This document shows positions 1-20,259 of a DNA stretch of 64,000 bases, piece after piece; position 1 is the first letter of the stretch; each line of letters opens with the position of its first letter. The notes under the pieces were generated by a model. The model was given only the letters and a program-made list of their open reading frames with translations, ran no database searches and was not told the DNA's origin. The DNA comes from an uncultured Aquabacterium sp. (lineage in GTDB: Bacteria > Pseudomonadota > Gammaproteobacteria > Burkholderiales > Burkholderiaceae_C): positions 132,987 through 196,986 of the forward strand of contig CAUPJV010000001.1 in NCBI GenBank assembly GCA_963511655.1. Reading direction: 5' to 3'. The translations under genes were made by a program, and so were the position numbers.

Positions 1-621
1 CTGTCTGTCCAGCAAGGCCTGGATCACGTGCGCGAACTCGGCTTTGGCCGGCGTGGGGTAGGGGTTGTTGTCATCGAGCCGAGCCTGGTCTGTGCGGGCT
101 CGCGACGCGGGGATCTGCACGGCCTTGAGGGCCCACCGGGCCAAGGTGCCGCCGAGGTCGATCTGCAGCTGCTTGCGTGCCCGAACCCAGCGGGCTCGGG
201 GGGTGGGATAGGCGTGCGTGTCCATCAGCCACAGGGCCTGGAGCCGGTCGTCATGCAGCGCTGCGGCCATCCCGTGGTGGGCGCCCGAGCAGATGCCCGC
301 CAGCGCGAAAGACCGGACCTGCGCAACGCGCTGGAGGTGGTCCATGGCAGCCTGCAGATCGACCACGGCCTGCCTCTCGAAGCTCAGGCCTTCATCGGAG
401 GCTTCGCTGTCGCCCAGGCCAGAGAGGTCCAGGCGCAGCACGGTGAAGCCCAGTTCGGCCAGCTTCCGGGCCAGCTTGACGTTGATGCGATGTGGCCCCA
501 TGCGGGGAACCACCCCTGCGTTGAGCAGCAGGACGGCGGTGCACCTCGCCACGCCGCTTGGGCGTGTGAGGGTGCCCACCAGGCGAGAGCCAGGCCCGAA
601 TGTGAGGATGTGCTCGTTCAC
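1..621 (-). CDS. Alpha/beta-hydrolase-fold protein with Cys nucleophile elbow (exosortase-associated hydrolase 1, TIGR03100-like); 3' end truncated by window edge
   Basis: Not in the ORF track; translated by hand. GTG start at 621 overlaps the TGA of the upstream gene (GTGA, 618-621) and the frame stays open to position 1: MNEHILTFGPGSRLVGTLTRP...LLLNAGVVPRMGPHRINVKLARKLAELGFTVLRLDLSGLGDS...ALAGICSGAHHG...; the elbow is G-I-C-S-G (283-297). Confidence 0.85.
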   Translation of the reverse strand, partial: MNEHILTFGPGSRLVGTLTRPSGVARCTAVLLLNAGVVPRMGPHRINVKLARKLAELGFTVLRLDLSGLGDSEASDEGLSFERQAVVDLQAAMDHLQRVAQVRSFALAGICSGAHHGMAAALHDDRLQALWLMDTHAYPTPRARWVRARKQLQIDLGGTLARWALKAVQIPASRARTDQARLDDNNPYPTPAKAEFAHVIQALLDRQ

Positions 622-1415
622 GCTGCCTGTCCCCTCACAGCCGAGGCCAGGAGGCGCAGCAGTGACGGTGGCGCCAGCGCAGCGCCTGCTGCCTCTTCGA
701 CGTGCCAGGCCATGTCGATGTCGGTGGGCTGGTGTCGCCAGGCGAGACCCCGGCTGGTCAAGCTCGACGACAGTTGCTTGTCAGATGGCGTGAGCCGCGT
801 GGCGATGTGGTGGCACCCCTCCTGGCAGCGCGGCTGCATGGACGCAACCGAGACGGCCTGGAGTTCCTGGATCCAGGTGTCGCTGACCCCGAAGCCCAGC
901 GCCTCGCCTCGCAATTCGGGGGCGGGGCGGCGATCGTGGATGAAGGGGTCGAATGTGTGGCGTGCGTGGGCGGCGCCCAGCTCCCGCGCGTAAGCGGCAC
1001 CATCGAGCACCGGCTCCCAGAGCACGATGCGAACGGGCGTCACCGGGCTGCGCTCAGACGCCAGCAGGGCCAGGGTGCCCCCCAGGCGCGTTCCGACCCA
1101 GACGGTGGCCGAGGCCCGGGTGCGGCGCCCCATTTCCTCCTGCGCTGCCAGGATGTCGTTTTGCCACTGTGTGATCGAGCCGGCCGTGTCCTCGCCAGAG
1201 GACTCTCCAGTGCCGAGGTAGTCAAAACGCATCACAGGCATGCCCTGGCACGCCAGCGATTCCGCCAGCAGGCGGTGGAGCCGGTGGGTGCGAATGGCCT
1301 CCTGCCCAAAAGGTGCGCACAGCAGCACTTGCAAGCCGTGACGGTTTGCGCCTGTAGGGGGGTGGTAGACCCCGTGGAGCCGATGCTGAGAGGGGCCGAA
1401 GAAAAATGGTGTCAT
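618..1415 (-). CDS. Alpha/beta-hydrolase-fold protein with Arg at nucleophile position (exosortase-associated hydrolase 2, TIGR03101-like)
   Basis: LLCAPFGQEAIRTHR and RFDYLGTGESSG motifs; the elbow reads VWVGTRLGG (G-T-R-L-G at 1080-1094) instead of G-x-S-x-G; lies 36 nt downstream of the megasynthase stop. Confidence 0.8.
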   Translation of the reverse strand: MTPFFFGPSQHRLHGVYHPPTGANRHGLQVLLCAPFGQEAIRTHRLHRLLAESLACQGMPVMRFDYLGTGESSGEDTAGSITQWQNDILAAQEEMGRRTRASATVWVGTRLGGTLALLASERSPVTPVRIVLWEPVLDGAAYARELGAAHARHTFDPFIHDRRPAPELRGEALGFGVSDTWIQELQAVSVASMQPRCQEGCHHIATRLTPSDKQLSSSLTSRGLAWRHQPTDIDMAWHVEEAAGAALAPPSLLRLLASAVRGQAA

Positions 1416-1451
1416 GGAAGAACAGTCCGGGGCGTCTTGGCTGCGTTCAGC

Positions 1452-4400
1452 TCAGCGCCCCAACCAGCGACTGAGCCACCCGCCCTTTGCAGGTCGGCTG
1501 GCATGTTGATCCGCATGCTGATCGGCGTGCCGGTCCGAACCCGATCCGCCATCATCGGCCAGTTTGGCGCCGGACAGAGGGGACGCTGACGAGGACGATC
1601 CCTTGTCTGCCGAAGCGGCAAGCTGCCCCAGGGTTTCGAAGATCAATCGGCGCACGTGCAGGGTGAGTCCGGTGCGCCGCTTGATTTCGGTGACCGCTCG
1701 CATGGCCAGCAAGGAGTGACCGCCCAGGTCGAAGAAGTTGTCATCGAGGCCGATGTCATCGGTGTCGATCAGCTCCTGCCAGACGGCGGCCATCGTCACT
1801 TCCAGCGGGGTGGCGGGCATGCGCTTGTTGTGCCTTGCGGCAGCGGGCCGGCTCGCTGCGTGGTTCGGGCGGGGCAGGGCGGCGCGGTCTACCTTGCCAT
1901 TGGGCAGCCGGGGCAAGGCGGGCAATGACACGATGTGCTGCGGCAGCATGTAGTCGGGCAAGCGCGAGGCCAGCATCGATGTCACGGCTTTCCCGTCCCC
2001 CAGGTCCTGCCCGTTGCGCGGCACGCAGTACGCAACCAGGCGCACGTCGCCGGGCTGGTCCTCGCGCGCCAGCACGACGGCCTGTCCGATGACGGTTTGA
2101 CTCAGCAAAGCGGCCTCGATTTCGCCGAGTTCGATGCGGTGCCCTCGCACCTTGACCTGGTGGTCCAGGCGTCCCAGGTGTTCCAGCGTGCCATCCGCGA
2201 GCCAGCGGCCAAGGTCGCCTGTCCGGTAGACGCGGGCCTCGGGCTGGGGGCTGAACGGATCCTGGACGAAGCGCTCTGCGGTTAGTTCCGGCCGATGGAG
2301 GTAGCCCGAGGTGACGCCATCACCGCCGATGCAGATCTCGCCCGGCGTGCCGATCGGGCAGGGCTGGCCCTGTGCCGTCAAGACGTGAACCTGGGTGTTC
2401 GCGATCGGTTGGCCGATGCGCACGCCCCGTTCCGGGTGCTCGACGCGCCAGCAGGTCGACCACACGGTGGTTTCCGTCGGGCCGTACATGTTCCAGACCG
2501 CGCCGCAGCGTTCCAGGAGGGCGCCTGCCAGCGAGGCTGGCAAGGGCTCGCCCCCGACCAGCGCGATGAAGCCGGGGGCACCTTGCCAGCCCGACTCGAC
2601 TAGCGCATGCCAGGTGCTGGGCGTGGCCTGCATCACGTCGATGTCTTCCTCCACCCGAGCCTTGAGCAGGAAGGGGTCGCGGCTGTCGTCTCCGCGACAC
2701 ATGACCACCTCTGCACCGACCAGCACGGGCAACAGCAACTCGAGCACGGAGATGTCGAAGCTCAGCGTGGTCACCGCAAGCAGACGTTGATGGGCCTGCA
2801 GGCCTGACTCACGCGCCATGCTGCGCAGGAAGTTGACCACGCTGCCATGTGGCACCACCACGCCTTTGGGCAGGCCGGTCGAGCCGGATGTGTAGATGAC
2901 ATACGCGGCATCGGAGATGCTGGCGTCGAGAGCTGGATCGGCCGCCAGGGGGGTATCCGGCTGCTGCAGCAGCAAGGCTTCATCCAGGTCTGTCAACAGG
3001 GTTTTGTCGCGCGGCCAGTCCAGTGCATGCAGGGTGTCCGAGCGGCTGACCACCCAGGCCAGGCGGGCATCCTGCGCCATGTGGCTCAGGCGCTCAGCGG
3101 GGTAGTCGGGGTCCAGTGGCACGTAAGCAGCGCCAGACTGAAGGATGCCCAGCACGGTGGCCAGGAGGTCCGGGCACCGGGGCATGCAAACCCCCACCAG
3201 GGCGCCCCTGCCCAGTCCATGCGCACGCAGGTGTCTTGCGATCTGCGTGGCGCGAGCCCACAGCTCGGCGTGGCTGAGGGAGCGTTCACCAGCCTGGCTG
3301 ATGGCGATGTCCGTCGACCCGACGTGCGGCTGTTGCCGCAGCAGATCGACCACGTTCTTTGCAGCGGGCCAATCGGTGGTGGTGTTGTTCCAGCGGCGAA
3401 GGTCTTCGCGCTCACGGTCGCAGAGGATGTCGATGTCTGACAGCGGGGAGCCAGCCAGATCCGGCAGCCGCCGCAGCAAGGTGGACAGCCGGTCGCCCAG
3501 CAACTGTGCGCTGGATGCGTCCAGGATGTCCGCGTTGTAGCTGATGGTGAACTCGATGCCCTCAGGCGTTTCCACGCACCACAGGGCCAGGTCCTGGGTG
3601 GTGCCCACCATGGGCACATCGAAGCGTTCGTGCACCACATTGCCCCACTTGGGCTGGCGTTCGCGTGCGTCCTGATAGGAGAACAGTGCCTGATGCAGCG
3701 GCGCCCGGCTTGCATCCCTGGGCAGCTGCAGGCTGCGGACGAGGTGATCCAGCGGGACATCGGGGTGCGAGAGGGCGTCGATCGCCTGACGCTGCACCTG
3801 CGTGAACCAGTCGGACACGGTCAGGTCGCCCCTGGGTCTCAGCCTCAGGGGCAGGGTGTTGACGAAGAAGCCGATGAGTGATTCGATTTCGGCGTGATCA
3901 CGTCCACGCACCGGGGTGCCGATGACCAGGTCCTCCTGTCCTGTGAGCTTGTGCAGCATCAGACCGAAGGCGCTCAGCAGCGTCGTGAAGAGCGTGCGTC
4001 CCTGACCTCGGGCGACATCACGCAGCTTGCGCGTCGTGTCGGGGTCGAGGTGGAAGGCGCACGAGCCGCCTTGTCCTGACATCACCGGTGGCCGGGCGCG
4101 GTCAACGGGCAAGGCCAGTGGCGATGGAGGCGGCGTCATCTGAGTCAGCCAGAACGCGGTCTGCGCCTGCAGCACTTCGCCGCTCATCCACTGGTTGTGC
4201 CAGGCTGCGAAGTCACCGTAGGTGACGGGCAGATCGGGCAAGCGAGCAGGCCGACCAGTCAGGGCGGCGTCGTACAGCTCGGACAATTCATCGTTGAAGA
4301 CCTGGAACGACCAGCCATCCCAGATCAGGTGGTGAACCAGGAAGAAGAGGACGTGCTCCTGGTCGGCGAGCTTGAAGAGCCGGATGGCAAACAGGGGGCC

Positions 4401-7400
4401 TTGTTCGAGGTCCAGGGGCCGTACAGCGATGTCATCCATGCGCTGACGCAGGCTGCCTTCTCTCTGGTTCTCGGGCAGGTGGCTGAGGTCATCGAGCGGC
4501 AGCAGGGACGCGTGCAGCGTGTTCGAGACGCGCTGCAGGTCGCCTGTCGGCGTGCGTTCGATGACGGTGCGCAGGGCGGTCTGCCTCAGCATCAGCTGCT
4601 GCCATGCCTGATCAAGCGCCTGCACGTTCAGCTCACCCACGAGCCGGTGGGCAGAAGGGATGTGGTGCGCGACGCTGTGGGGCGTGACGTTCTCGATGTA
4701 CCAGATGCGCTGTTGCATCTGGGACAGGGGGGCCGTGACGGCGTGCTCGCGGTGCGGGATGACCGGGGTGGGTGTGGCGGTTGTTGGCGCCGACTGCGTG
4801 TCGGCGGCATCGGCGGCATCGGGGGCGTGCGTGCGCCCTTCTCCGTCAAGCGCCAGGGCCAGTCGGCGAGGCGTGGGGTTGTCGAAAATCGTGTGCACGG
4901 TCACCGCGCGACCGCTTCGCTTGCGGATCTGCGTCACAGCCCGCATCACCAGAAGGGAGTGGCCGCCTCGATCGAAGAAGTCTTCGTCCAAGCCGAACCG
5001 ATCCAGCCCCAGCAGGCCGCGCCAGATCTCGGCGACGATGTCGGCCACGGAGTCAGCCACGGATACGTCCACTGACGCCGTCGGCTCCGCTGGCTTGTCA
5101 GCGGCAACAGTGGACGATGGCGTGACGGGCGCACCAAGGGCAGGCGGCGGTGCGTCTGCGCCAGGCGTGAAGTCATAACCCGACAGTGGGCGATCCGGGT
5201 CGGTCACGATGTCGCGCAGCATGCGTTCGAGGGCCTTGCCGAAAGCCGCGACGGTTTCGGTGTCGAGCACGTCCGCGTTGAACGTGAACACGAACTCGAT
5301 GTGGTTGCGTGTCTCCACGCACCACAGGGACAGGTCCTGCGCCGCTCCCAGCATGGGGGTCGGCATGCGCTGGTGGTCGACGTTGCCCCAGCGGGTGGTG
5401 CGTTCTCGCACGTCCTGGTAGGAGAACGAAGCCTGGTGGATGGGCGGGCGGCTGCGGTCGCGGGGCACCTGCATCACGTGCACCAGGTGATCGAAGGGCA
5501 CGTCGGGGTAGGAGAAGGCTTCCACCACCTTGCGGTGCACGGCGTCCAGCCAGGCTGGCAGAGTCATGTCCGCGCCGGGCTGCATGCGCAGTGGCAGCAT
5601 GTTGACGAAGAAGCCCATGAGGTGCTCCAGCGCCGGTTGCTCCCGTCCGCGAACCGGGGTGCCGATGACGAAGTCGTTCTGTTTGGTGACCCTGTGGAGG
5701 GCGAGGGCGTAGGCGGCCAGCAGGGTGATGTAGAGGGTGCGACCTCGTTGACGGGCCTGCGTACGCAGTGCGTCGGTCACGTCCTTGGCCAGGTTGAACT
5801 GGAACGAGCCGCCTCGGCCAGACATGACGGCTGGGCGCGGACGGTCAAGGGTCAGGTCCAGTGGTGGTGGCAGCGGCGTGAGCTGTTCGCGCCAGTAGCC
5901 CAGCTGACGCTGCAGCTCTGGCCCGGTCATCCACTCGTTGTGCCACGCCGCGAAGTCGCCGTAGCTGACCGTGAGGGCGGGCAGCCCTGGGGGCCGGCCT
6001 TCCAGGCAGGCGGCATAAAGCTCAGGCAGATCCACGTACAGCAGGTCAAAGGACCATGCGTCCCAGATCAGGTGATGAGCCTGGAAGAGCAGGCCGTGCT
6101 CTTCTGGCGCCAGGCGGAACAGGCGCGCGGTGAACAAGGGGCCTTTTTCCAGGTCATAGGGGGTCTCGACCAGCTCGGCGATGACCTTGTTCATCGCCGG
6201 CTTGCGCTCGTCCTCCGGCAGGTGACTGAAGTCGTCAAAGGGGATCAGGCTGAAGGGCAGTTCAGGCAGGATGCGCTGTACATCGCCATCCGGCGTGCGC
6301 GCGATCACCGTGCGCAGCACGCTTTGACGCTGGACGAGGAGCCGCCAGGCCTGGTTGAACGCTTCCACATCGAGCGGCCCCAGCAGGCGATGCCCGGTGG
6401 GGATGCTGTGAACCACGGTATCCGGCGTCAGGTTCTCCAGGAACCAGACGCGCTCCTGCATCTGCGACAAGGGTGCGCTCGATTGGTCGGCGCGAACCGG
6501 GATGGTGTCGGACTGACCCGAGCTGACGCCCTCGCCTGCCTCAGCAGCCTTGAGTTGCAGCAGCGCTGAAGCCAGGCCAGCAGGCGTGGGGTGATCGAAG
6601 ATCACACGCAGACCCGGGCGTTGACCCAGTGCTTTGGCCAGCGCCGCCGAGAGCTTGGCCGCCATCAGCGAATGCCCGCCCTGCTCGAAGAAGTGGTCGC
6701 TGTCGCCCAGGCGTTCGCGCCCGAGCAGCCGGCCCATCTCCCGAGCCACCGTGTCGATCGCCTGAGCGAGTGGGGTGCCTGCTGTCGCGGCGTCGGCGCG
6801 CGCAGGATGCGGTGTTTCAGAGCGAGGGGTCGGCAGCGAGGGGTGGGCCGTGCCGCTCGGCACCGGAAGCGCCTTGCGGTCGACCTTGTTGTTGGGCAGC
6901 AGGGGAAGCGCAGGCAGCACCAGCACCGAACGGGGCAGCATGTAATCTGGCAGTGTCTGCCTCAGGCTGTTGCGCAAGGCGCCCGTGTCCAGTGCTGCGC
7001 CCGCCTGAGGCACGACGTAGCCAATCAGGGCCATGTCGCCCGGCGTGACTTCGCAGGCGATGACCACCGCGCGCGACACACCCGCCAGCCTCTCCAGCTG
7101 GGCTTCGATTTCACCGAGCTCGATTCGATAGCCGCGGATCTTGACCTGGAAGTCCATGCGTCCCAGGTGCTCGATCTGACCGTCCTCGCGCCAGCGTCCC
7201 AGGTCCCCGGTGCGATAGACCAGCCGGCCGGGGCGCGGGCCCCATGGCAGCGCCACGAAGCGCTCTGCCGTCAGGTCGGGGCGACCGTGGTAGCCCAGGG
7301 CCACGCCATCACCACCGATGCAGATTTCGCCCTCTGCACCCACGGGCACGGGACGCAAGGCTTCATCCAGGATCCAGACCTGGGTGTTGTCTATGGGGCG

Positions 7401-10400: not shown

Positions 10401-13400
10401 GTTCTGGATCGGCTCGATCATGATGGCCGCCAGTTCGTGCGCGCACTGGCGCAGCACCTCCAGCGACGCGGGGCTGTCGTAGTCCAGCACCAGGATGTTT
10501 TCCACCGCGTTGGCCAGGATGCCCGGGGCGGCCGACAGCGAGCGCAGCTGCTTGGTGCCGCGCACGATCACCTCGTCGAAGATGCCGTGGTAGCTGTTGT
10601 TGAAGATGGCGATTTTCTTGCGGCCGGTGACGGTGCGCGCGATGCGCATGGCGCCCATCACGGCCTCGGAGCCGGTGTTGCAGAAGCCCACGCGCTCCAT
10701 GCCCGTGAACTCGCGCATCAGGTCGGCGACTTCAGCGGCCATGGGGTGCTGGGGGCCGACCTCGATGCCCTTGTGCAGCTGCTCGACCATGGCCTGTGTC
10801 ACGTCGGCCGGCTTGTGGCCCAGGAAGTTGGCGCCGAAGCACGACAACAGGTCGATGTACTCGTTGCCGTCGATGTCCCAGATGCGCGCGCCGTCGGAGC
10901 GGTCGGCCACGATGGGGTAGACCAGGTCCTTCCACATCGGGTTGAAGCCGGTGACCACGCGCGGGTCGGCCATGGACTTGCGGTGTCGCTGGCTGAAGGC
11001 CTTGGAGGCGCCGGAGCGCTGGTTGTAGCGGCGGATGAAATCGTCGATCCACTGCTGCTGGGCCGGGGTGAACTCGTTGTTGGCAGACAGCACGATGCGC
11101 GCCGAAGCCCCGAACGGTTTTTCCACGAGGGCGTTTTTGGCGGGTTGCTCGGTGGCGGGGGGTGTGATGGCGGGTGGTGCGATGGCGGGTGGTGCGATGG
11201 GCGCGCTGGGTGCCCCCAAAGGCATCGCCGCGATCGGTGCGCTGGCCGCGCCGGGCGTGGGCTGTCCCAGCAAGGCGAGCTGCATCTGCATGATCTGCAT
11301 CTGCTGCTGGATGACGGCCATCACGGCATTCTGGGAGCCGGGCTGAGTCGGCGCGACCGGCATGACCAGCGTCTGCACGGGCGCGAAGGCCACATCGCCA
11401 GCCTGCAGAGCAGCCGCAGCCGCAGACGTAGACGCAGCAGGCTGCGCCGCCTCCGGTGCGAAGCGATCGGCGGGCACCTGCCCGTCCAGGAACACCGCCA
11501 GCTTGCTCAAGGTGTCGACGTCTTCCAGCAAGCGCCTGAAGCGCATCTTCACGCCGAAGGCCTTCTCGAACTCCAGCGTCGCCTGGGTGAGGGACAGCGA
11601 GTCAAGGCCCTGGTCGACGAAGGTGGCGTTGCGGTCGACCGTTTCAGGCGGCAGCCCGGCCACGTCACCCAGGATGCGGACGATTTCTTGCTCGATGCGG
11701 GGCAGTCGATTCATGGTGATCGGTGGTTGAGGCGGGGCGGTGGTGGTCGGCAAAGGATCGGGCGTCGCAGCCAGGGACACGGTCGCGACCGCGCGTCGCG
11801 TGAACCAGTGCCGCTCGCGGCGGAAGGGGTAGGTGGGCAGGGCCACTCGCGGGGTGCCGGTCGGCACGGGCCAGGCCACGTCCACGCCCTGCGACCACAG
11901 CTGGCCCAAGGCGCTGAGCGCATGACGCACGGGCGCCAGGTTGGATTGAGCGGCCTGGGCCGAGCTGAGCAGGGGCACGATGGCGGGCACCGCACCGTCA
12001 ACGCGGTGTTGTCGGACCAAGGCCGTCAAGGCCTGGCCGGGGCCGACCTCGATGAACAGCACGTCGCCCGGTGCCTGAGCCAGGGCTTGCTCGGCTTGCA
12101 CCGCCCGGCTGAAGGCCACGGGCGCGCGCACCTGGCGGGCCCAGTAGCCCGGGTCGGTGGCTTCGTGGTCAGACAACAAGGCGCCGCTGATGCACGAGTA
12201 CACCGGGATGCGAGGCGCGGCCAGCGTGGCGTTTGACAGGGCCGCGTGCACGCGCGGCAGGGCGCCTTCCATGGAGGCGCTGTGGAATGCGTGCGAGACC
12301 TTCAGGCGCGTGACGCCGATGTCTTGCGCCTCCAGCGTTCGCGCCAGCGTGTCGATGTCGGCGTGCGACCCAGCGACCACGCTGAGCTGCGGGGCGTTGA
12401 GCGCGGCCACGTCGATGCCGACGGGCAAGAGGGGTTGCAGCGCATCCAGGCTTGCCCGCACGGCCAGCATGGCGCCAGGCGGTTGCGCGAACATGGCCGC
12501 GCCGCGCTCCACCACGGCTTGCATGGCATCGGTGGGCGACATCACGCCCGCGTGGCAGGCCGCGGCGTACTCACCGATGCTGTGCCCGATCATGGCGTGG
12601 GGCTGGATGCCCAGGCTGTCGAGCCAGGCAGCCAGCGCGTGAGACACCGCAAACAGCGCCGGCTGGGCGTGGCGGGTTTCAGCCAGCAGCGCGGCGGCCT
12701 GGGCGTCGTCGGGTGCGGCTTGCGTCAGCAGGTGACGCAGGGTGGCTGCGAGCTCGGCGGGCGCGGCCGACAGGCAACGCTCGAAGGCGTCCCCGAAAGC
12801 CGGAAAGGCCTCGACCAGCTCGCGCGCCATGCCGGGGTGCTGGGAGCCCTGGCCGGGAAACAGGAAAACCAGGCGCGTGGGCCGCTTGACGCCAACCGTG
12901 CCGCTGGGAGACGGGGCGGCGGCGAGGGCGCGCAGGGCGTCCACCGCCTCAGCCGCGTCGCGTGCCACCACGGCTGCCCGCACCGGCATGGCCTGGCGGC
13001 CGCGCATCAAGGTGGCGGCCACGGCGGACAGCGGGGGCACGGGGTGTGGCGGTGGGCTGCTGTGCAGCTTGCCGGCCGCCAGGTGTTCAGCGAGGTGCTC
13101 AGCGAGGTCAAGCGCACGCTGTTTCAGCGCCTCGGGGTGGCGCGCCGACAGGGGCAGCAGTTGCAGGCCGCTGCCCGCGTCGACACCCAGCGGCGTGGCC
13201 GGCAGTGTGACAGGCAACGTGGCAGGTGGCCCCTCTTCGACGATGACGTGCGCGTTCGTGCCCCCCACGCCGAAGGAGCTCACCGCGGCGCGGCGCACCA
13301 CCGCACCGCGCGCCCAACCCAGCGGCTGGCCACTGACCTGAAACGGCGTGGCGGCAAAGTCGATCTGCGGGTTGGCTTGCGAGAAATGCAGCGTGCCCGG

Positions 13401-16400
13401 GATGCACTCGCGGTGCAGCGCCAGGGCGGCCTTGATGAGCCCCAGCACGCCCGCGGCGGCCACCAGGTGCCCGACGTGGCCCTTGACGGAGCCCAGCGTG
13501 CAAAAGCCCGTCTCGCGGGTGTCTTGCGACCAGGCCCGCGTCAGCGCCGCGACCTCGATGGGGTCGCCCAGCGCCGTGCCCGTGCCGTGCGCTTCCACGT
13601 AGCCGATGCTGCGCGCGTTGACCTGAGCGTGGCGCAGCGCCATGCGGATGGCCTGGGCCTGGCCGCTGACGCTGGGGGCCGTGAAGCTCGCCTTGTCGGC
13701 GCCATCGTTGTTGAGCCCGACGCCTTTGACCACGCCGTAGACGGTGTCGCCATCAGCCAGGGCGCGCGACAGGCGCTTGAGCACCACCACGCCGCCCCCG
13801 CTGCCGAACACCGTGCCCGAGGCCTGAGCGTCGAATGGCCGGCAGCGCCCGTCGGCCGACTCCATGCCCCCTTCGACGTGCAGGTAGCCTCCCTCTTGCG
13901 GGACGATGACGGTCACGCCGCCGGCCAGCGCCACGTCGCACTGACCCTGTGCCAGCGCGTGCCAGGCTTGTGTGACGGCCACGAGCGAGGTCGAACAGGC
14001 GGTGTGGATGGCCACGGCCGGGCCGTTGAGGTTGAGTCGGTGCGCCACCCGGGTGGCCACGTAGTCCTTCTCGTTGGCCAGCATGGTGGTGAACTCGCCG
14101 GCTTGCGCGATGAGCTCGGGCTGCTCGGCTCGCATGGCAGGCAGGTAGCCGTTGTTGGCGCTGCCCGCGTAGACGCCGATGCGCCCCGGGCTGCGAGACG
14201 GGTCGATGCCGGCGTGTTCCAGCCCGCTCCAGCACAGCTCCAGGAACAGGCGCTGTTGCGGGTCCATCAGCGTGGCTTCGCGCGGCGAGATGCCGAAGAA
14301 GGCCGCGTCGAAGCGGTCGGCATCGGCCAGCACGCCGCGAGCCGCCACGAAATGGGGCTGGCTGCGCAGCGACTCGGGCACGGACGCATCGAGCTCTTCG
14401 GGCCGAAAACGCCGCAGCGTTTCCTTGTCGTTCAGCAAGTCGGTCCAGAAGGTGTCCAGGTCGCGGGCCTCGCCCACGCGCAAGGCCATGCCGACGATGG
14501 CGATGCCTTCGCCAGGAGGCGCACCGATCGGCCCTTCATCGATTTGCGGCGTGGAGGTGTCCGGTGCGCTCAGCAAGGCAGCCAGCCCGGCCACCGTGGG
14601 GCGGTCGTAGACGTCGGCCACGCTCAGCCGCACGCCTTGCTCCTTGAGTCGGGTGACGAAGCGCATCACCAGCAGCGAGCGGGCACCCTGGTCGAACACG
14701 TTGGCGTCGTCGGGCAGTTGGTCCAGGCCCAGCAGCTCCTGCCAGAGCTGGCGAATGCGCCCGACCAGCTCCGTGCGGCCCGCCCGCGAGGCGTTGCCTT
14801 GGGGGGCGTCGGCGCTGGGTGCATTGGCGCGTGGTGCATCAGCGCGTGGTACAGCCGGTGGCAGGCTGCGGCGGTCGATCTTGCCGCTGGGCGTCGTGGG
14901 CAGCCGCTGGAGCACCGCGAAGCGCACCGGGATCATGTACTCGGGCAGGCGCTCACGCAGCCAGCTGCGCCATCCCGACGCCAACGTGCTGGCGCCCGGT
15001 TTGAGCACCACGTGGGCGGTCAGCACGCGGCTGCCGTCTGGGTCGGTCGGGGCCGTGACCACCGCATCCAGCAAGTCGGGGTGCGCCATCAGGGCCAGCT
15101 CGATGTCACCGGGTTCGATGCGGAAGCCGTCGACCTTGAGTTGCTGGTCGGCTCGACCCAGGTAGGTGAGGGCGCCGCCGTCGTCCTGGCTGACCAGGTC
15201 ACCGGTGGCATACCAGCGCCCGGTTTGGCCCGCGGGCTCGATCAGGAAGCGATCGGCCGTGAGGCTGGCCTGGCCGAGGTAGCCTTCGGCCAGGGTTTCA
15301 CCGCCCAGCATCAGCTCGCCCGGCGCGACACCGGGCTCATCCGAGGCCACGGGACGCAACCAGACCTTCACATGGGGCAGTGGGCGCCCGATCGGCGGGA
15401 TCTGCGGCCAGGTCTGCGGTGAGCCACTGAGCTCATGGGCGGTGACCACGTGGGTCTCCGTCGGGCCATAGTGGTTGTGCAGCACGGCACCGCTCTGGCG
15501 CTCGAACAGCGCGCGGATGTTGGGCGTGACCTGGAGCTGTTCGCCCGCGCTGACGACGTCCTGCAGGCACAGGCCGCCCGCCGTGGGCGACTCGCTGTGG
15601 GCGTCGGCGTCGGCTTCGGCTTCGGCTTCGGCGTCTGCGTGCGCGAGCATCTGCAGCGCCACATAGGGCAGGTAAAGGCGTTGAACGCGCTGCTCGACCA
15701 GGGCGGCACGCAGCCGAGCGGGGTCGCGGCGCACCTCGTCGGAGACGAGCACCAGCGTGCCACCGGTGGCCAGCGTGGTGGCGATTTCCTGGAAATGCAC
15801 GTCAAAGGACAGGGGCGCGAACTGCAGCGTGCGCGCCGACTGCCCCAGGCGCGGGTGCGCTGCGTGCCAGGCGGTGAGGTGGGCCAGCGGCGCCACCCCC
15901 ATGGCCACGCCCTTGGGCCGGCCAGTGGAGCCGGAGGTGAAGAGCACGTAGACCAGGTCGCCCGAGCCGGCGTGCGGTGCCTCGGAGCGCGCACGCGGCG
16001 ACGCCAGGCAAGGGAATTCGCCCACCTGCGAGCGCAGCGCGTCCAGCGAGGCGGAGTCGCCCACGACGGCGCGCACCTGCGCATCCTCCAGCATGGCCTG
16101 CAGGCGCTCACTGGGGTAGCTGAGGTCCAGCGGCACGTAAGCCAGCCCGGCCTCCAGCGCCGCCAGGATGGAGACGATGGTGTCGACGCTGCGGGCAGCG
16201 GCGATCCCCACCCGGTCACCCGACTGCAGCCCTGCAGCCAGCCACGCGGCGGTGCGCTGGCTGACCTGATCGGCCAGCTGCTGGTACGTCAGGTGGGCGC
16301 CCAGGCCCTCGATCGCAACGCGCGCAGGCCACTGCACTGCGCTGGTTCGCAAAAGCTCTCGTAGGTGGATGTGCGCTCCAGCCCCGTTGGTCATCGTCAC
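1452..16400 (-). CDS. Hybrid NRPS/type I PKS with embedded class III aminotransferase, 4982 aa (A-T-KS-AT-ACP-AMT-C-A-T-C-T-C-A-T, no TE)
   Basis: Approximate domains: A1 14860-16370 (YVLFTSGSTGRPKG, NHYGPTE, SGKIDR); T1 14570-14775 (DQGARSLL); KS 13240-14510 (HTACSTS, HGTGT, KGHVGH); AT 11890-12885 (GHSIG, HAFH); ACP 11475-11715 (QGLDSL); AMT 9770-11030 (DEVVTGFR, TYGKIIGGG); C1 8400-9660 (SHLVFDG); A2 6870-8360; T 6560-6770 (GGHSL); C2 5200-6480 (HHLIWDA); T 4850-5060 (GGHSL); C3 3460-4740 (HHLIWDG); A3 1890-3390; T 1620-1810 (GGHSL). GTG start with AGGA upstream. Confidence 0.97.
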   Translation of the reverse strand: MTMTNGAGAHIHLRELLRTSAVQWPARVAIEGLGAHLTYQQLADQVSQRTAAWLAAGLQSGDRVGIAAARSVDTIVSILAALEAGLAYVPLDLSYPSERLQAMLEDAQVRAVVGDSASLDALRSQVGEFPCLASPRARSEAPHAGSGDLVYVLFTSGSTGRPKGVAMGVAPLAHLTAWHAAHPRLGQSARTLQFAPLSFDVHFQEIATTLATGGTLVLVSDEVRRDPARLRAALVEQRVQRLYLPYVALQMLAHADAEAEAEADADAHSESPTAGGLCLQDVVSAGEQLQVTPNIRALFERQSGAVLHNHYGPTETHVVTAHELSGSPQTWPQIPPIGRPLPHVKVWLRPVASDEPGVAPGELMLGGETLAEGYLGQASLTADRFLIEPAGQTGRWYATGDLVSQDDGGALTYLGRADQQLKVDGFRIEPGDIELALMAHPDLLDAVVTAPTDPDGSRVLTAHVVLKPGASTLASGWRSWLRERLPEYMIPVRFAVLQRLPTTPSGKIDRRSLPPAVPRADAPRANAPSADAPQGNASRAGRTELVGRIRQLWQELLGLDQLPDDANVFDQGARSLLVMRFVTRLKEQGVRLSVADVYDRPTVAGLAALLSAPDTSTPQIDEGPIGAPPGEGIAIVGMALRVGEARDLDTFWTDLLNDKETLRRFRPEELDASVPESLRSQPHFVAARGVLADADRFDAAFFGISPREATLMDPQQRLFLELCWSGLEHAGIDPSRSPGRIGVYAGSANNGYLPAMRAEQPELIAQAGEFTTMLANEKDYVATRVAHRLNLNGPAVAIHTACSTSLVAVTQAWHALAQGQCDVALAGGVTVIVPQEGGYLHVEGGMESADGRCRPFDAQASGTVFGSGGGVVVLKRLSRALADGDTVYGVVKGVGLNNDGADKASFTAPSVSGQAQAIRMALRHAQVNARSIGYVEAHGTGTALGDPIEVAALTRAWSQDTRETGFCTLGSVKGHVGHLVAAAGVLGLIKAALALHRECIPGTLHFSQANPQIDFAATPFQVSGQPLGWARGAVVRRAAVSSFGVGGTNAHVIVEEGPPATLPVTLPATPLGVDAGSGLQLLPLSARHPEALKQRALDLAEHLAEHLAAGKLHSSPPPHPVPPLSAVAATLMRGRQAMPVRAAVVARDAAEAVDALRALAAAPSPSGTVGVKRPTRLVFLFPGQGSQHPGMARELVEAFPAFGDAFERCLSAAPAELAATLRHLLTQAAPDDAQAAALLAETRHAQPALFAVSHALAAWLDSLGIQPHAMIGHSIGEYAAACHAGVMSPTDAMQAVVERGAAMFAQPPGAMLAVRASLDALQPLLPVGIDVAALNAPQLSVVAGSHADIDTLARTLEAQDIGVTRLKVSHAFHSASMEGALPRVHAALSNATLAAPRIPVYSCISGALLSDHEATDPGYWARQVRAPVAFSRAVQAEQALAQAPGDVLFIEVGPGQALTALVRQHRVDGAVPAIVPLLSSAQAAQSNLAPVRHALSALGQLWSQGVDVAWPVPTGTPRVALPTYPFRRERHWFTRRAVATVSLAATPDPLPTTTAPPQPPITMNRLPRIEQEIVRILGDVAGLPPETVDRNATFVDQGLDSLSLTQATLEFEKAFGVKMRFRRLLEDVDTLSKLAVFLDGQVPADRFAPEAAQPAASTSAAAAALQAGDVAFAPVQTLVMPVAPTQPGSQNAVMAVIQQQMQIMQMQLALLGQPTPGAASAPIAAMPLGAPSAPIAPPAIAPPAITPPATEQPAKNALVEKPFGASARIVLSANNEFTPAQQQWIDDFIRRYNQRSGASKAFSQRHRKSMADPRVVTGFNPMWKDLVYPIVADRSDGARIWDIDGNEYIDLLSCFGANFLGHKPADVTQAMVEQLHKGIEVGPQHPMAAEVADLMREFTGMERVGFCNTGSEAVMGAMRIARTVTGRKKIAIFNNSYHGIFDEVIVRGTKQLRSLSAAPGILANAVENILVLDYDSPASLEVLRQCAHELAAIMIEPIQNKYPTLQPTAFVQQLREIATQGGAALIFDEVVTGFRVAPGGAQEFYGVRADIATYGKIIGGGLPFAAIAGNSLWLDALDGGHWQYGDDSHPEAGVTYFAGTFVRHPLALAAARATLLHIKQGGHALYQAINGRTQRMVERINTAFAERRAPVKAVHCASLWRLSWDDNARNISLFYYLARFKGLHLYEQFGHFVTEAMTDSDCDLIADTFIEIMSELMSLGFIDPRAGSPCAGVTRPPAPPATSAPTSSPLTPGQTERWLAAIYDPAARVALNESFCVSLRGDVDRPALKLALQDVLQRHDAFKLRFDLDQPRQILEPSALVPVEEVDLRVCPDSDQALDQHSWQASATVFLLDQAPLARASILSLADGRVVVHVVASHLVFDGWASSVFNAELAQAYHARREGRTPQWGAAESALRFAETEHARFEHEEGKASVRHWQQALQNLPAAVSLGDQAPAGPRTFAGDTVRARLDGGQLDRLREQARSHGATLFQWLLHAVAELIWRESGRRDVVVSIPFAAQSLQRHGPLLADGVLDLPVRIQTREGEPLADRVRRIKSTLMDAMEFPLMTQGTAARAIGLQAEGSKPALTSIYFNLNPKVDLSGWAPLLASMHEGRKRGLLSEVFFNFHEQPDALTLDLHHSSEYLSHSRAQALVDRLMHILADGADACPAGPDPRVLTWNQTDRPLDAHARVEAWVSRQAMQTPTQLAVVSQDGTLTYQELEAQANQIARLLQTRGAAPGQRVGISLPRGRHLLPAMLGVLKTGASYVPLDPGFPGERLKMMAEDAGLTLVVTHSTCAEACGLPHSAQLQLDREAALLEAAHATGLPVHTDTQAPAYVIYTSGSTGRPKGVAVPHRAVCNFLASMRREPGLQPSDRLLAVTTLSFDIAVLELLLPLVTGGTVVLATRDQAMDGEALMALASQHHVSVMQATPTTWHLLLDAGWQPPQGFKALVGGEPLPAALASALLAKGVDVWNMYGPTETTVWSTLSHITDASGRIAIGRPIDNTQVWILDEALRPVPVGAEGEICIGGDGVALGYHGRPDLTAERFVALPWGPRPGRLVYRTGDLGRWREDGQIEHLGRMDFQVKIRGYRIELGEIEAQLERLAGVSRAVVIACEVTPGDMALIGYVVPQAGAALDTGALRNSLRQTLPDYMLPRSVLVLPALPLLPNNKVDRKALPVPSGTAHPSLPTPRSETPHPARADAATAGTPLAQAIDTVAREMGRLLGRERLGDSDHFFEQGGHSLMAAKLSAALAKALGQRPGLRVIFDHPTPAGLASALLQLKAAEAGEGVSSGQSDTIPVRADQSSAPLSQMQERVWFLENLTPDTVVHSIPTGHRLLGPLDVEAFNQAWRLLVQRQSVLRTVIARTPDGDVQRILPELPFSLIPFDDFSHLPEDERKPAMNKVIAELVETPYDLEKGPLFTARLFRLAPEEHGLLFQAHHLIWDAWSFDLLYVDLPELYAACLEGRPPGLPALTVSYGDFAAWHNEWMTGPELQRQLGYWREQLTPLPPPLDLTLDRPRPAVMSGRGGSFQFNLAKDVTDALRTQARQRGRTLYITLLAAYALALHRVTKQNDFVIGTPVRGREQPALEHLMGFFVNMLPLRMQPGADMTLPAWLDAVHRKVVEAFSYPDVPFDHLVHVMQVPRDRSRPPIHQASFSYQDVRERTTRWGNVDHQRMPTPMLGAAQDLSLWCVETRNHIEFVFTFNADVLDTETVAAFGKALERMLRDIVTDPDRPLSGYDFTPGADAPPPALGAPVTPSSTVAADKPAEPTASVDVSVADSVADIVAEIWRGLLGLDRFGLDEDFFDRGGHSLLVMRAVTQIRKRSGRAVTVHTIFDNPTPRRLALALDGEGRTHAPDAADAADTQSAPTTATPTPVIPHREHAVTAPLSQMQQRIWYIENVTPHSVAHHIPSAHRLVGELNVQALDQAWQQLMLRQTALRTVIERTPTGDLQRVSNTLHASLLPLDDLSHLPENQREGSLRQRMDDIAVRPLDLEQGPLFAIRLFKLADQEHVLFFLVHHLIWDGWSFQVFNDELSELYDAALTGRPARLPDLPVTYGDFAAWHNQWMSGEVLQAQTAFWLTQMTPPPSPLALPVDRARPPVMSGQGGSCAFHLDPDTTRKLRDVARGQGRTLFTTLLSAFGLMLHKLTGQEDLVIGTPVRGRDHAEIESLIGFFVNTLPLRLRPRGDLTVSDWFTQVQRQAIDALSHPDVPLDHLVRSLQLPRDASRAPLHQALFSYQDARERQPKWGNVVHERFDVPMVGTTQDLALWCVETPEGIEFTISYNADILDASSAQLLGDRLSTLLRRLPDLAGSPLSDIDILCDREREDLRRWNNTTTDWPAAKNVVDLLRQQPHVGSTDIAISQAGERSLSHAELWARATQIARHLRAHGLGRGALVGVCMPRCPDLLATVLGILQSGAAYVPLDPDYPAERLSHMAQDARLAWVVSRSDTLHALDWPRDKTLLTDLDEALLLQQPDTPLAADPALDASISDAAYVIYTSGSTGLPKGVVVPHGSVVNFLRSMARESGLQAHQRLLAVTTLSFDISVLELLLPVLVGAEVVMCRGDDSRDPFLLKARVEEDIDVMQATPSTWHALVESGWQGAPGFIALVGGEPLPASLAGALLERCGAVWNMYGPTETTVWSTCWRVEHPERGVRIGQPIANTQVHVLTAQGQPCPIGTPGEICIGGDGVTSGYLHRPELTAERFVQDPFSPQPEARVYRTGDLGRWLADGTLEHLGRLDHQVKVRGHRIELGEIEAALLSQTVIGQAVVLAREDQPGDVRLVAYCVPRNGQDLGDGKAVTSMLASRLPDYMLPQHIVSLPALPRLPNGKVDRAALPRPNHAASRPAAARHNKRMPATPLEVTMAAVWQELIDTDDIGLDDNFFDLGGHSLLAMRAVTEIKRRTGLTLHVRRLIFETLGQLAASADKGSSSSASPLSGAKLADDGGSGSDRHADQHADQHASRPAKGGWLSRWLGR
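11166..11200. repeat. 15-bp tandem repeat (GATGGCGGGTGGTGC x2 plus partial) in the ACP-AMT linker
   Basis: Read directly; encodes the IAPPAIAPPAITPP linker stretch on the minus strand. Confidence 0.8.
15601..15636. repeat. Hexamer tandem repeat GC(G/T)TC(G/T) x6 inside adenylation domain A1
   Basis: gcgtcg gcgtcg gcttcg gcttcg gcttcg gcgtct; encodes ADAEAEAEADADA. Confidence 0.85.
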
Positions 16401-16501
16401 CTCGTCCTGCCTTTTGGTGGGTGGCGCTCAGGCATGACTTGCCCGTGCCTGGCTTCACCCCATTCGTGAGTCTGTGGCGTGCCTGTGGCACGCACCCAAG
16501 G

Positions 16502-16517
16502 AGTAACCATTGTTACT
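16502..16517. promoter_or_regulatory. Inverted repeat AGTAAC-N4-GTTACT, candidate operator in the megasynthase/dusA divergent region
   Basis: Perfect 6-bp arms in an AT-richer intergenic region about 100 nt upstream of the megasynthase start; regulator unknown. Confidence 0.4.
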
Positions 16518-16748
16518 TCGCAGTATTCACCGTGTTCAAAGCGAAAGGGTGGCTTGCCCCCAGGTTAAAGGGGTAAAAATGTCTTGCTGTTCGGGGCATG
16601 CCCAGCGGCAGGCCGGTGTTTTTCCGATATTCCTATGGATTCGGTAGGCCCTGTTGTTTTCCCATCCTCTGAAAACCCCGCCGAATCGGCCTAGATGGCG
16701 TTTCAATGGGAGCGACCCGTGCGGGTGCGACGCGCTACAGTCTCGGCC

Positions 16749-17827: not shown

Positions 17828-17831
<4 letters not shown>
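16749..17831 (+). CDS. dusA: tRNA-dihydrouridine(20/20a) synthase DusA
   Basis: [54 protein letters not shown] motifs; start moved to the ATG at 16749. Confidence 0.93.

Positions 17832-20259
<2,428 letters not shown>

What the first reader, a model, noticed from the sequence alone, without database searches (positions are those of the whole stretch)
1..16400. Candidate undescribed system: TE-less single-gene NRPS-PKS-aminotransferase megasynthase with a coupled alpha/beta-hydrolase pair
Seen: one 15-kb ORF with 14 domains (A-T-KS-AT-ACP-AMT-C-A-T-C-T-C-A-T), all five carrier serines present, no TE or R domain, followed co-directionally by two hydrolase-fold genes that overlap each other by GTGA. 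Known: embedded class III aminotransferases occur in McyE (microcystin) and MycA (mycosubtilin), but those lines start from fatty-acyl or polyketide chains and are split across several genes ending in a TE. Inference: this is a compact pathway to a short, amine-rich peptide-ketide (roughly pyrrolidine beta-amino acid-Gly-[X]-Gly). I cannot match it to any characterised cluster from memory.
Basis: partly seen in the sequence, partly recalled or inferred. Interest (0 to 1): 0.9.

Follow-up and report, generated by a model that had tools for sequence, protein, structure and literature searches.

The report
Release-domain-less peptide-polyketide synthase with hydrolase pair
A single 15-kb gene in an Aquabacterium-like bacterium encodes a complete peptide-polyketide assembly line with no built-in release domain, and an uncharacterised two-protein unit (one cysteine hydrolase, one catalytically dead partner) most likely unloads its product instead.

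Summary
One ORF on the minus strand (1452-16400, 4982 aa) reads A-T-KS-AT-ACP-AMT-C-A-T-C-T-C-A-T. All five carrier serines are present and there is no TE or R domain. Two alpha/beta-hydrolase genes follow and overlap each other by GTGA.

DNA left of the window adds a JmjC oxygenase, a membrane-anchored SGNH protein, a methyltransferase and an Sfp-type PPTase, then housekeeping genes. The genome holds no other NRPS and no convincing TE, so this is not the first gene of a longer line.

Specificity codes predict Pro, then malonate and transamination (the AMT domain is MycA-like), then Gly residues.

The cassette is conserved across many Burkholderiales and Lysobacterales. The A-less C-T pair is a duplication found only in the nearest clade.

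The hydrolases are divergent paralogues of the exosortase-A hydrolase 2 / hydrolase 1 pair. Hydrolase 1 has an invariant Cys and His. Hydrolase 2 never has a nucleophile. Orthologues without the pair end in a Cys-type TE. In an independent class-wide sample the pair followed a TE-less C-A-T terminus in 10 of 11 loci.

I found no characterised cluster, but could not run MIBiG. This scan has noted the same pair on other genomes. The product and its acceptor remain unknown.

The parts
1452..16400 (-). Megasynthase ORF, 4982 aa: A-T-KS-AT-ACP-AMT-C-A-T-C-T-C-A-T, with no TE or R domain
14880..16349 (-). A1 adenylation domain, code DVQYVAHVVK (Pro-like)
   Evidence: The code DVQ[YF][VI]AHVVK is conserved in nearly all Pro-primed orthologues.
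14571..14759 (-). T1 carrier domain (GARSL, Ser575)
13083..14507 (-). KS domain with linker; TACSTS Cys, EAHGTGT and KGHVGH His
11949..12869 (-). AT domain with GHSIGE and HAFH (malonyl-type motif)
   Evidence: The meaning of the HAFH motif is from established PKS knowledge.
11496..11690 (-). ACP (GLDSL)
9711..10919 (-). Class-III aminotransferase (AMT) domain of MycA type; PLP lysine in YGKIIGGG
   Evidence: (MycA AMT 6KFM/6KFU, E 4e-124, 418 bits)
8361..9659 (-). C1 condensation domain (SHLVFDGW)
6888..8315 (-). A2 adenylation domain, code DILQLGMVWK (Gly)
6561..6752 (-). T2 carrier domain (GGHSL)
5163..6485 (-). C2 condensation domain (HHLIWDAW). The same DA variant is the only inter-Gly C domain in orthologues L006 and L008.
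4854..5039 (-). T3 carrier domain with no adenylation domain of its own; part of the clade-specific extra didomain
3399..4736 (-). C3 condensation domain (HHLIWDGW), 54% identical to C2
1893..3314 (-). A3 adenylation domain, code DILQLGMVWK (Gly)
1614..1787 (-). T4, the terminal carrier domain (GGHSL)
1455..1613 (-). C-terminal tail: a low-complexity linker ending in a conserved basic amphipathic motif, GWLSRWLGR
   Evidence: The motif GW[LF]xR[LW]LGR or MxRLxxLVxRA ends most of the TE-less orthologues printed; L036, for one, lacks it.
618..1415 (-). Hydrolase-2-like alpha/beta-fold protein, 265 aa, with Arg at the nucleophile elbow (GTRLG); a predicted pseudoenzyme
   Evidence: (TIGR03101 88 bits, cut-off 202.75)
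1..621 (-). Hydrolase-1-like alpha/beta hydrolase with a Cys nucleophile (GICSG). Its first 207 of 274 codons lie in the window. It overlaps the upstream gene by GTGA. Further left in the genome (locus L002) lie: JmjC 18198-19064(-), SGNH 17086-18183(+), methyltransferase 16185-16982(-), PPTase 15481-16206(-).
16401..16694 (.). 294-nt divergent intergenic region between the megasynthase and dusA; no Rfam match

Best explanation
This is a complete, self-contained hybrid assembly line.

Chain assembly (inferred from domains and specificity codes):
- A1 loads proline (or a close cyclic imino acid) on T1.
- KS-AT-ACP extends it with malonate to a beta-keto acyl thioester. There is no KR domain.
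- The MycA-type AMT domain converts the keto group to an amine, giving 3-amino-3-(pyrrolidin-2-yl)propanoyl-S-ACP.
- C1-A2-T2 adds glycine.
- C2-T3 is an A-less module, probably loaded with glycine by a neighbouring Gly-specific A domain. It is an extra didomain peculiar to this clade.
- C3-A3-T4 adds the last glycine.
- The predicted chain is a diamino-acyl-(Gly)2-3 thioester on T4.

Release (inferred from comparative evidence):
- There is no TE or R domain. The two co-transcribed, translationally coupled alpha/beta-fold proteins unload the chain.
- Hydrolase 1 takes the glycyl-terminated chain on its invariant Cys (a Cys-His enzyme). It then passes the chain to water or to an acceptor not yet identified.
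- Hydrolase 2 is an obligate non-catalytic partner with Arg or Gly where the nucleophile should be. It may bind the carrier, the tail motif or the acceptor.

Accessory genes:
- The JmjC oxygenase probably hydroxylates the chain.
- The Sfp-type PPTase primes the five carrier domains.

What is shown and what is inferred: the domains, motifs, gene order, conservation and complementary distribution are shown by tool results. The substrates, the order of chemical steps, the acyl-Cys intermediate and the fate of the product are inferred.
For: Architecture and catalytic motifs.

Specificity codes, and their conservation across orthologues.

AMT domain: nearest solved relative is the MycA AMT, at 418 bits against about 177 bits for the next family.

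The cluster ends within a few kb on both sides. Housekeeping genes lie to the right. To the left are JmjC, SGNH, methyltransferase and PPTase, then housekeeping genes.

The genome has only this NRPS, and its PF00975 hits are marginal, 32 bits or less.

The hydrolase pair sits next to the orthologous megasynthase in about 40 loci from Burkholderiales, Lysobacterales and Myxococcota.

Orthologues L025, L031 and L032 lack the pair. They end instead in a PF00975 TE (85-87 bits) whose nucleophile is also Cys, GLCAGG. In the megasynthase tree these TE-bearing forms fall as separate lineages among pair-bearing ones.

Hydrolase 1: Cys111 and His251 are invariant in 41 of 41 sequences. Hydrolase 2: the elbow residue is Arg or Gly in most sequences and is never Ser or Cys.

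Independent sample, chosen by a hydrolase-1 profile in 401 evenly drawn genomes of the class: all 11 strong loci have hydrolase 2 immediately upstream. In 10 of the 11 the pair directly follows a terminal C-A-T with no release domain. In 7 of those 10 the terminal A domain has a Gly code.

Natural fusions exist: hydrolase 2 fused to hydrolase 1 (P0029), and hydrolase 1 fused to an A-T-KS-AT line (P0109).

The hydrolase-1 AF2 model is confident (pLDDT 90) and is an alpha/beta hydrolase.
Against: There is no biochemical evidence for any step.

Foldseek matches for hydrolase 1 are generic (TM 0.5-0.6), so the fold says nothing about what it does beyond hydrolase or acyltransferase.

Some orthologues with full flanks have neither the pair nor a TE: the Aquimonas group and L036, which has a free-standing C protein. 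Other release routes therefore exist.

The JmjC gene travels with the line whether a TE or the pair is present, which leaves room for an oxidative release step.

The Pro call rests on a remembered code table, not on a predictor.

No exporter gene lies in the cluster.

Not all immediate neighbours of pair-bearing loci are polysaccharide genes.
Confidence: 0.6

Rival explanations
1. Oxidative release. The JmjC Fe(II)/2-oxoglutarate oxygenase hydroxylates the alpha-carbon of the terminal glycine on T4. The carbinolamide then collapses and frees the product as a primary amide. The hydrolase pair only clears the leftover glyoxylyl thioester. This is the logic described for the terminal Gly module of myxothiazol and melithiazol, which I cite from memory.
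For: The line ends in Gly. The JmjC gene is part of the conserved core and has an invariant HxD...H plus Lys. It co-occurs with both TE-bearing and pair-bearing forms, as expected if a hydrolase is still needed to regenerate the carrier.
Against: The JmjC protein is only weakly similar to side-chain hydroxylases such as FIH and JMJD5, E about 1e-4, and no alpha-hydroxylase precedent exists in that family. In one search many pair-bearing loci showed no JmjC match within the fetched flanks, and the neighbours I sampled in the independent class-wide loci were not JmjC. No evidence bears on the site of hydroxylation.
Confidence: 0.12
2. The pair is a proofreading (type-II-TE-like) unit. Real release is non-enzymatic or performed by a C domain, for example intramolecular attack by the pyrrolidine nitrogen or the beta-amine, or condensation with a free amine.
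For: The chain carries two free amines. L036 has a free-standing C protein where the pair would be. Some lineages have neither the pair nor a TE.
Against: The pair stands exactly where a cis TE stands in sister lineages. It directly follows the last carrier in 10 of 11 independent loci. It occurs fused to assembly lines. Editing TEs normally coexist with a terminal TE rather than replace it (established knowledge).
Confidence: 0.1
3. It is a member of an already characterised cluster with a known product that I failed to find.
For: MIBiG, antiSMASH and BiG-FAM could not be run. The paper library lacks most subscription journals.
Against: Seven full-text searches on the pair, the architecture and the host genera returned nothing relevant. 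NCBIfam still labels the nearest hydrolase families as hypothetical equivalogs.
Confidence: 0.1
4. It is only the first gene of a conventional multi-gene line that ends in a TE elsewhere.
For: None, beyond the lack of a TE in this gene.
Against: The next genes are the hydrolases, JmjC, SGNH, methyltransferase and PPTase, then housekeeping. The 99%-complete genome has no other condensation-domain gene of NRPS size and no convincing TE.
Confidence: 0.03

Closest known systems
MycA / ItuA (mycosubtilin and iturin synthetase subunit A), beta-aminating cassette KS-AT-ACP-AMT-C-A-T
   Same: The domain order from KS to the first NRPS module is the same. The AMT domain is its closest solved relative (6KFM/6KFU, E 4e-124). 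The predicted chemistry is also the same: beta-keto thioester to beta-amino thioester, then peptide bond.
   Different: The starter is an amino acid loaded by an NRPS A domain (Pro-like code), not a fatty acid loaded by an acyl-AMP ligase. The whole line is one protein. The downstream residues are only Gly. There is no terminal TE.
Exosortase-A-associated hydrolase 2 / hydrolase 1 pair (NCBIfam TIGR03101 / TIGR03100, hypothetical equivalogs)
   Same: Both pairs have the same gene order, hydrolase 2 then hydrolase 1. Hydrolase 1 has a Cys at the nucleophile elbow and hydrolase 2 has an Arg there. In both settings the pair sits beside a TE-less, carrier-protein-dependent activating enzyme.
   Different: The scores are far below the curated cut-offs: 88 against 202.75, and 85 against 168.45. 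This genome has the genuine set elsewhere, on contig C5, beside ligase_PEP_1 and dCO2ase_PEP1. The window's pair is therefore a separate paralogous subfamily tied to NRPS/PKS termini.
Cys-nucleophile NRPS thioesterase domains (SulM of sulfazecin, ObiF of obafluorin)
   Same: A thiol rather than a serine takes the chain at release. Both papers describe a catalytic cysteine (PMC11298585, PMC6668435). The cis TE in orthologues L025, L031 and L032 is also of Cys type.
   Different: Those are cis PF00975 domains that form beta-lactam or beta-lactone rings. Here the Cys enzyme is a free-standing protein of another alpha/beta-hydrolase family with a dead partner, and no strained ring is predicted.
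Proline-primed PKS extension that makes dolaproine in dolastatin-type peptides (from memory)
   Same: Pro is loaded and extended by one ketide unit, giving a 3-substituted 3-(pyrrolidin-2-yl)propanoate unit.
   Different: That unit is reduced and O-methylated, not transaminated, and it lies inside a long TE-terminated line.

Membership tests
MycA/ItuA-type beta-aminating hybrid synthetase | Class-III aminotransferase domain embedded directly after the PKS ACP and before a C domain | tested here: met
   Pfam Aminotran_3 at 1828-2143, between the ACP (1571-1635) and C1 (from 2248). The best PDB match is the MycA AMT, E 4e-124.
MycA/ItuA-type beta-aminating hybrid synthetase | Fatty-acyl-AMP ligase loading domain (lipopeptide starter) | tested here: not met
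   A1 carries an amino-acid code with Asp235, DVQYVAHVVK (Pro-like).
MycA/ItuA-type beta-aminating hybrid synthetase | Line ends in a terminal TE domain | tested here: not met
   No PF00975 or reductase domain in the protein. None convincing in the genome.
TIGR03100 hydr1_PEP / TIGR03101 hydr2_PEP (exosortase A system-associated) | Score above NCBIfam's curated cut-off | tested here: not met
   85.2 against 168.45, and 88.1 against 202.75. The genome's true members score 287.8 and 210.4.
TIGR03100 hydr1_PEP / TIGR03101 hydr2_PEP (exosortase A system-associated) | Adjacent pair in the order hydrolase 2 then hydrolase 1 | tested here: met
   618-1415 then 1-621, overlapping by GTGA. The order is the same in about 40 related loci and in 11 of 11 independent loci.
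TIGR03100 hydr1_PEP / TIGR03101 hydr2_PEP (exosortase A system-associated) | Neighbourhood with the exosortase-A set (ligase_PEP_1, ACP, dCO2ase_PEP1) | tested here: not met
   The neighbours here are the megasynthase, JmjC, SGNH, methyltransferase and PPTase. The ligase and decarboxylase lie on contig C5.
TIGR03100 hydr1_PEP / TIGR03101 hydr2_PEP (exosortase A system-associated) | Cys at the hydrolase-1 elbow and a non-nucleophile at the hydrolase-2 elbow (a shared trait seen here, not a published definition) | tested here: met
   GICSG and GTRLG in the window; GLCDG and SLRAG in the genome's true pair.
Type I NRPS/PKS thioesterase release | PF00975 domain after the last carrier domain | tested here: not met
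   Only a 53-aa tail follows T4. By contrast, orthologues L025 and L031 have the domain at 85-87 bits.
JmjC / cupin-8 Fe(II)/2-oxoglutarate oxygenase (accessory gene) | Pfam Cupin_8 above cut-off and an HxD...H metal triad | tested here: met
   Cupin_8 scores 30.7 bits against a cut-off of 27.4. H142, D144, H215 and K157 are invariant in 25 orthologues.

The most novel reading that the evidence does not exclude
The hydrolase-2 / hydrolase-1 unit is a widespread, undescribed two-protein off-loading module. It combines a Cys acyl-enzyme with an Arg/Gly pseudoenzyme and replaces the thioesterase of carrier-protein assembly lines. It does not hydrolyse the chain. Instead it grafts glycyl-terminated products onto an envelope acceptor such as a glycan, a lipid, or the substrate of exosortase A. 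If so, this amine-rich Pro-ketide-Gly peptide is a cell-surface decoration, and the long-unexplained exosortase-A accessory genes work the same way.
Probability: 0.25. Interest if true: 0.85.

Novelty: new variant of a known kind. Interest (0 to 1): 0.62.

Why it matters
NRPS and PKS lines are thought to need a TE, R or terminal C domain to release their product. Here the release function appears to have passed to a separate two-protein unit. Its hydrolase-1 component belongs to a very large family: 3196 clusters at 50% identity with E <= 1e-30. No paper that I could find describes it.

If the reading is confirmed, three things follow.
- Natural-product research gains a new, portable release or transfer module.
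- The exosortase-A-associated hydrolase genes get a testable function.
- A family of small diamino-acyl-glycine products, found in common freshwater and biofilm bacteria such as Aquabacterium, Hydrogenophaga, Methylibium and Lysobacterales, becomes open to study.

Culturable type strains carry orthologous clusters, so the experiments are practical.

Tried and rejected
- Literature. Seven full-text searches on the hydrolase pair, TIGR03100/03101, exosortase plus NRPS, the host genera and the architecture found no description of the system. The review of embedded PLP domains (PMC3870968) does not mention these taxa.
- Fold of hydrolase 1. The AF2 model is good (pLDDT 90), but Foldseek against the PDB gave only generic alpha/beta hydrolases, among them feruloyl esterases, lipases and the DcsB TE, at TM 0.5-0.6. 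Profile searches of the PDB for both hydrolases likewise gave only generic or recently deposited esterases.
- JmjC protein. A single-sequence PDB search found nothing. The profile search gave only weak FIH and JMJD5 hits.
- Riboswitch. I looked for one, for example a glycine riboswitch, in the 5' intergenic region and found none.
- Further NRPS or TE. I considered that one might lie beyond the window or elsewhere in the genome, and rejected this.
- C2 as a dead domain. I considered that its HHxxxDA motif marks it as inactive. I rejected this as evidence, because the same variant is the only C domain between the two Gly modules in orthologues L006 and L008.
- Glycan neighbours. I tested whether polysaccharide genes always flank the pair. 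They do not: the immediate neighbours in independent loci are mixed.
- Step not taken.
Full report
**1. What is in the window**

A single ORF runs on the minus strand from 16400 to 1452 and encodes 4982 aa. It has a coding-type codon bias, with GC3 of 0.84.

Pfam on the whole protein and on nine overlapping pieces gives this map:
- A1 18-507, T1 548-610, KS 632-1106, AT 1178-1484, ACP 1571-1635
- AMT 1828-2143, C1 from 2248, A2 2696-3171, T2 3217-3280
- C2 3306-3746, T3 3788-3849, C3 3889-4334, A3 4363-4836, T4 4872-4929
- a 53-residue tail

No thioesterase or reductase domain is present.

The catalytic motifs are intact:
- five carrier serines
- the KS Cys/His/His
- AT GHSIGE and HAFH
- the AMT lysine
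- the C-domain motifs SHLVFDGW, HHLIWDAW and HHLIWDGW

Thirty-six bases downstream starts a 265-aa alpha/beta-fold gene (618-1415). Its stop overlaps the GTG start of a second such gene (1-621) in the sequence GTGA. No minus-strand terminator separates the three genes.

**2. Limits of the cluster**

The window is G000:C1:132987-196986. To the right of the megasynthase lie dusA (divergent), guanine deaminase, adenosine deaminase and ybbP, which are all housekeeping genes.

I fetched the DNA to the left of the window. Hydrolase 1 is 274 aa in full. After it come:
- a JmjC/cupin-8 protein, whose true start is at L002:19064, 289 aa
- a divergently oriented SGNH/GDSL protein with an N-terminal membrane or signal segment
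- a TIGR04325 methyltransferase
- an Sfp-type PPTase

Next come 3-hydroxyisobutyryl-CoA hydrolase, a GGDEF regulator, typA, truB and rbfA.

The genome is 99% complete. Its only NRPS-size condensation-domain hits are the three inside this protein, and its PF00975 matches are all marginal, at 32 bits or less.

**3. Predicted chemistry**

I read the ten Stachelhaus positions from the A4, A5 and A10 motifs. The positional mapping reproduces DAWTIAAICK for GrsA-PheA as I recalled that sequence.

- A1 reads DVQYVAHVVK, a proline-type code.
- A2 and A3 both read DILQLGMVWK, the glycine code. The meaning of the codes comes from memory of the published table.
- The AT domain has the malonyl-type HAFH motif, and there is no KR domain.
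- The AMT domain's best solved relative by far is the aminotransferase domain of mycosubtilin synthase MycA (6KFM/6KFU, E 4e-124, 418 bits; the next family scores about 177 bits).

The inferred chain is 3-amino-3-(pyrrolidin-2-yl)propanoyl-Gly-(Gly)-Gly on T4.

**4. A conserved family, with one local peculiarity**

A search with the AMT-C1 stretch found 165 related loci, of which 80 were kept. The nearest are Aquabacterium genomes and MAGs at 79-83% identity. Others are Hydrogenophaga, Methylibium, Piscinibacter, Rubrivivax, Leptothrix, Ideonella, Caldimonas, Aquimonas and other Lysobacterales. More distant forms occur elsewhere.

Most orthologues are 4100-4450 aa and read A-T-KS-AT-ACP-AMT-C-A-T-C-A-T.
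- Only the window and its five nearest relatives carry the extra didomain, and they form one clade in the megasynthase tree.
- C2 and C3 are 54% identical, so the A-less module is an old, lineage-specific duplication.
- The HHxxxDA motif of C2 is also the motif of the only inter-Gly C domain in L006 and L008. It is therefore not a sign of inactivity.

The A1 code DVQ[YF][VI]AHVVK is conserved throughout the Pro-primed clade. A2 is usually Gly and sometimes Ser-like. A sister clade in Lysobacterales and Myxococcota starts with a Val-type code.

Within the host family the full cassette was found in 7 of 301 sampled genomes, a patchy distribution.

**5. The hydrolase pair**

NCBIfam places the two proteins nearest TIGR03101 (hydrolase 2) and TIGR03100 (hydrolase 1), both 'exosortase A system-associated'. 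The scores are far below the cut-offs: 88 against 203, and 85 against 168.

The same genome has the genuine pair on contig C5, scoring 210 and 288 bits. It sits next to ligase_PEP_1 (760 bits) and dCO2ase_PEP1 (614 bits). The window's pair is thus a distinct paralogous subfamily.

Alignment of 41-44 orthologues, with the genuine pair included, shows the following:
- In hydrolase 1, the elbow Cys111 and a C-terminal (D/N)-His251 are invariant.
- In hydrolase 2, the elbow residue is Arg or Gly in most sequences and is never Ser or Cys.
- The genuine exosortase-A pair shows the same Cys and Arg pattern.

The AF2 model of hydrolase 1 is confident (pLDDT 90). Its structural neighbours are generic alpha/beta hydrolases.

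**6. Evidence that the pair is the release device**

(a) The pair adjoins the orthologous megasynthase in about 40 loci. These include distant lineages where its position and orientation differ.

(b) Three orthologues lack the pair (L025, L031, L032). Each ends instead in a PF00975 thioesterase (85-87 bits) whose nucleophile is, unusually, also Cys: GLCAGG. These forms sit as separate lineages among pair-bearing ones in the tree. Cis TE and trans pair have therefore been exchanged more than once.

(c) I ran an independent sample. A hydrolase-1 profile was searched in 401 genomes drawn evenly from the class.
- It gave 11 strong loci in 8 genomes.
- All 11 have hydrolase 2 immediately upstream.
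- In 10 of them the pair directly follows a terminal C-A-T with no release domain, behind otherwise different lines.
- In 7 of those 10 the last A domain has a Gly code.

(d) Natural fusions exist: hydrolase 2 fused to hydrolase 1 (P0029, with an Arg elbow and a Cys elbow), and hydrolase 1 fused to an A-T-KS-AT line (P0109).

(e) Most of the TE-less megasynthases printed end in a conserved basic amphipathic motif, GW[LF]xR[LW]LGR or MxRLxxLVxRA. This is a candidate docking or membrane-contact peptide.

The hydrolase-1 family is large: 3196 clusters at 50% identity with E <= 1e-30.

Cys-type TEs are known from SulM and ObiF (PMC11298585, PMC6668435), where the thiol is tied to unusual release chemistry. 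By analogy, I infer an acyl-S-Cys intermediate here.

**7. What remains open**

The fate of the chain is unknown. Some context points to glycans:
- UDP-sugar dehydrogenase and epimerase genes beside the orthologue in Caldimonas and Aquimonas
- Acyl_transf_3 genes in two lineages
- a polysaccharide deacetylase, a Wzx-type flippase and a carbamoyltransferase beside independent pair loci
- the SGNH protein and the O-antigen-type methyltransferase in this cluster

Other neighbours are unrelated, so grafting onto a surface polymer is a hypothesis only.

The conserved JmjC oxygenase has an invariant HxD...H plus Lys and weak FIH/JMJD5 likeness. It could tailor the chain. Alternatively, it could hydroxylate the terminal Gly and so trigger release as an amide.

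Lineages with neither pair nor TE (Aquimonas, and L036 with a free C protein) show that other release routes exist.

**8. Known or new**

I could not run MIBiG or BiG-FAM. Full-text searches found no description of the pair or of this architecture.

Earlier notes of this scan report the same Cys/Arg hydrolase pair behind TE-less lines in other genomes. My tests were designed independently and agree with them.

My verdict has three parts.
- The assembly line is a new member of the MycA-like beta-aminating hybrids.
- The trans-acting pair that replaces the TE makes the whole system a new variant of a known kind.
- It is of real, though not extreme, interest.

Noticed in passing
G000 contig C5:93700-99000 (locus L084): The same genome carries the genuine exosortase-A accessory set. 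Hydrolase 2 scores 210 bits and hydrolase 1 scores 288 bits. They lie divergent from ligase_PEP_1 (760 bits) and dCO2ase_PEP1 (614 bits). It is a second TE-less, carrier-dependent system with the same Cys/Arg pair.
   Followed up: partly
L040 (Aquimonas voraii DSM 16957) 2270-19047; also L038, L043, L044, L056: These orthologous megasynthases are shorter and have neither the hydrolase pair nor a TE. They are flanked by a UDP-sugar dehydrogenase, an NAD-dependent epimerase, a hexapeptide-repeat acyltransferase, a free ACP and an AMP-ligase.
   Followed up: partly
L036 18541-20391 (Rubrivivax MAG): A free-standing 617-aa condensation-domain protein lies near the end of a TE-less orthologue that has no hydrolase pair in the fetched flank. 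It may be an alternative release enzyme.
   Followed up: no
P0066 (724 aa) and P0109 (1866 aa): Hydrolase 1 occurs fused to other modules. P0109 carries it at the N-terminus of an A-T-KS-AT line. P0066 carries it before a roughly 430-aa C-terminal region that I did not identify.
   Followed up: partly
The genome search (e.g. G286:C19:40665-42326, G074:C1:491802-493484): Many genomes of the same family hold a different ORF of about 2400-2550 aa whose AMT domain is 46-51% identical to this one but lacks the following C1 domain. This is a second, distinct AMT-containing synthase type.
   Followed up: no
L031 versus L032: A contig binned as 'Synechococcus sp. UW140' is almost identical to a Hydrogenophaga sp. 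XSHU_21 contig across the megasynthase (tree branch lengths 0.025 and 0.029). It is probably a mis-binned contig.
   Followed up: no
window 16695-17831 and loci L004, L005, L007, L008, L011, L012, L035, L053: dusA lies divergently next to the megasynthase in this genome and in at least nine relatives, at 73-97% protein identity. The insertion next to dusA is therefore old and syntenic. No integrase was seen.
   Followed up: partly
window 23668-24405 (-): A 245-aa ORF with very high GC3 (0.94) lies between cheW and an MCP gene. It has no Pfam or NCBIfam match.
   Followed up: no
L051 19947-21869 and L030 19106-21022: An S15 X-Pro dipeptidyl-peptidase family gene (about 640 aa) lies just beyond the hydrolase pair and JmjC in two lineages. 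It could process or degrade a Pro-containing product.
   Followed up: no
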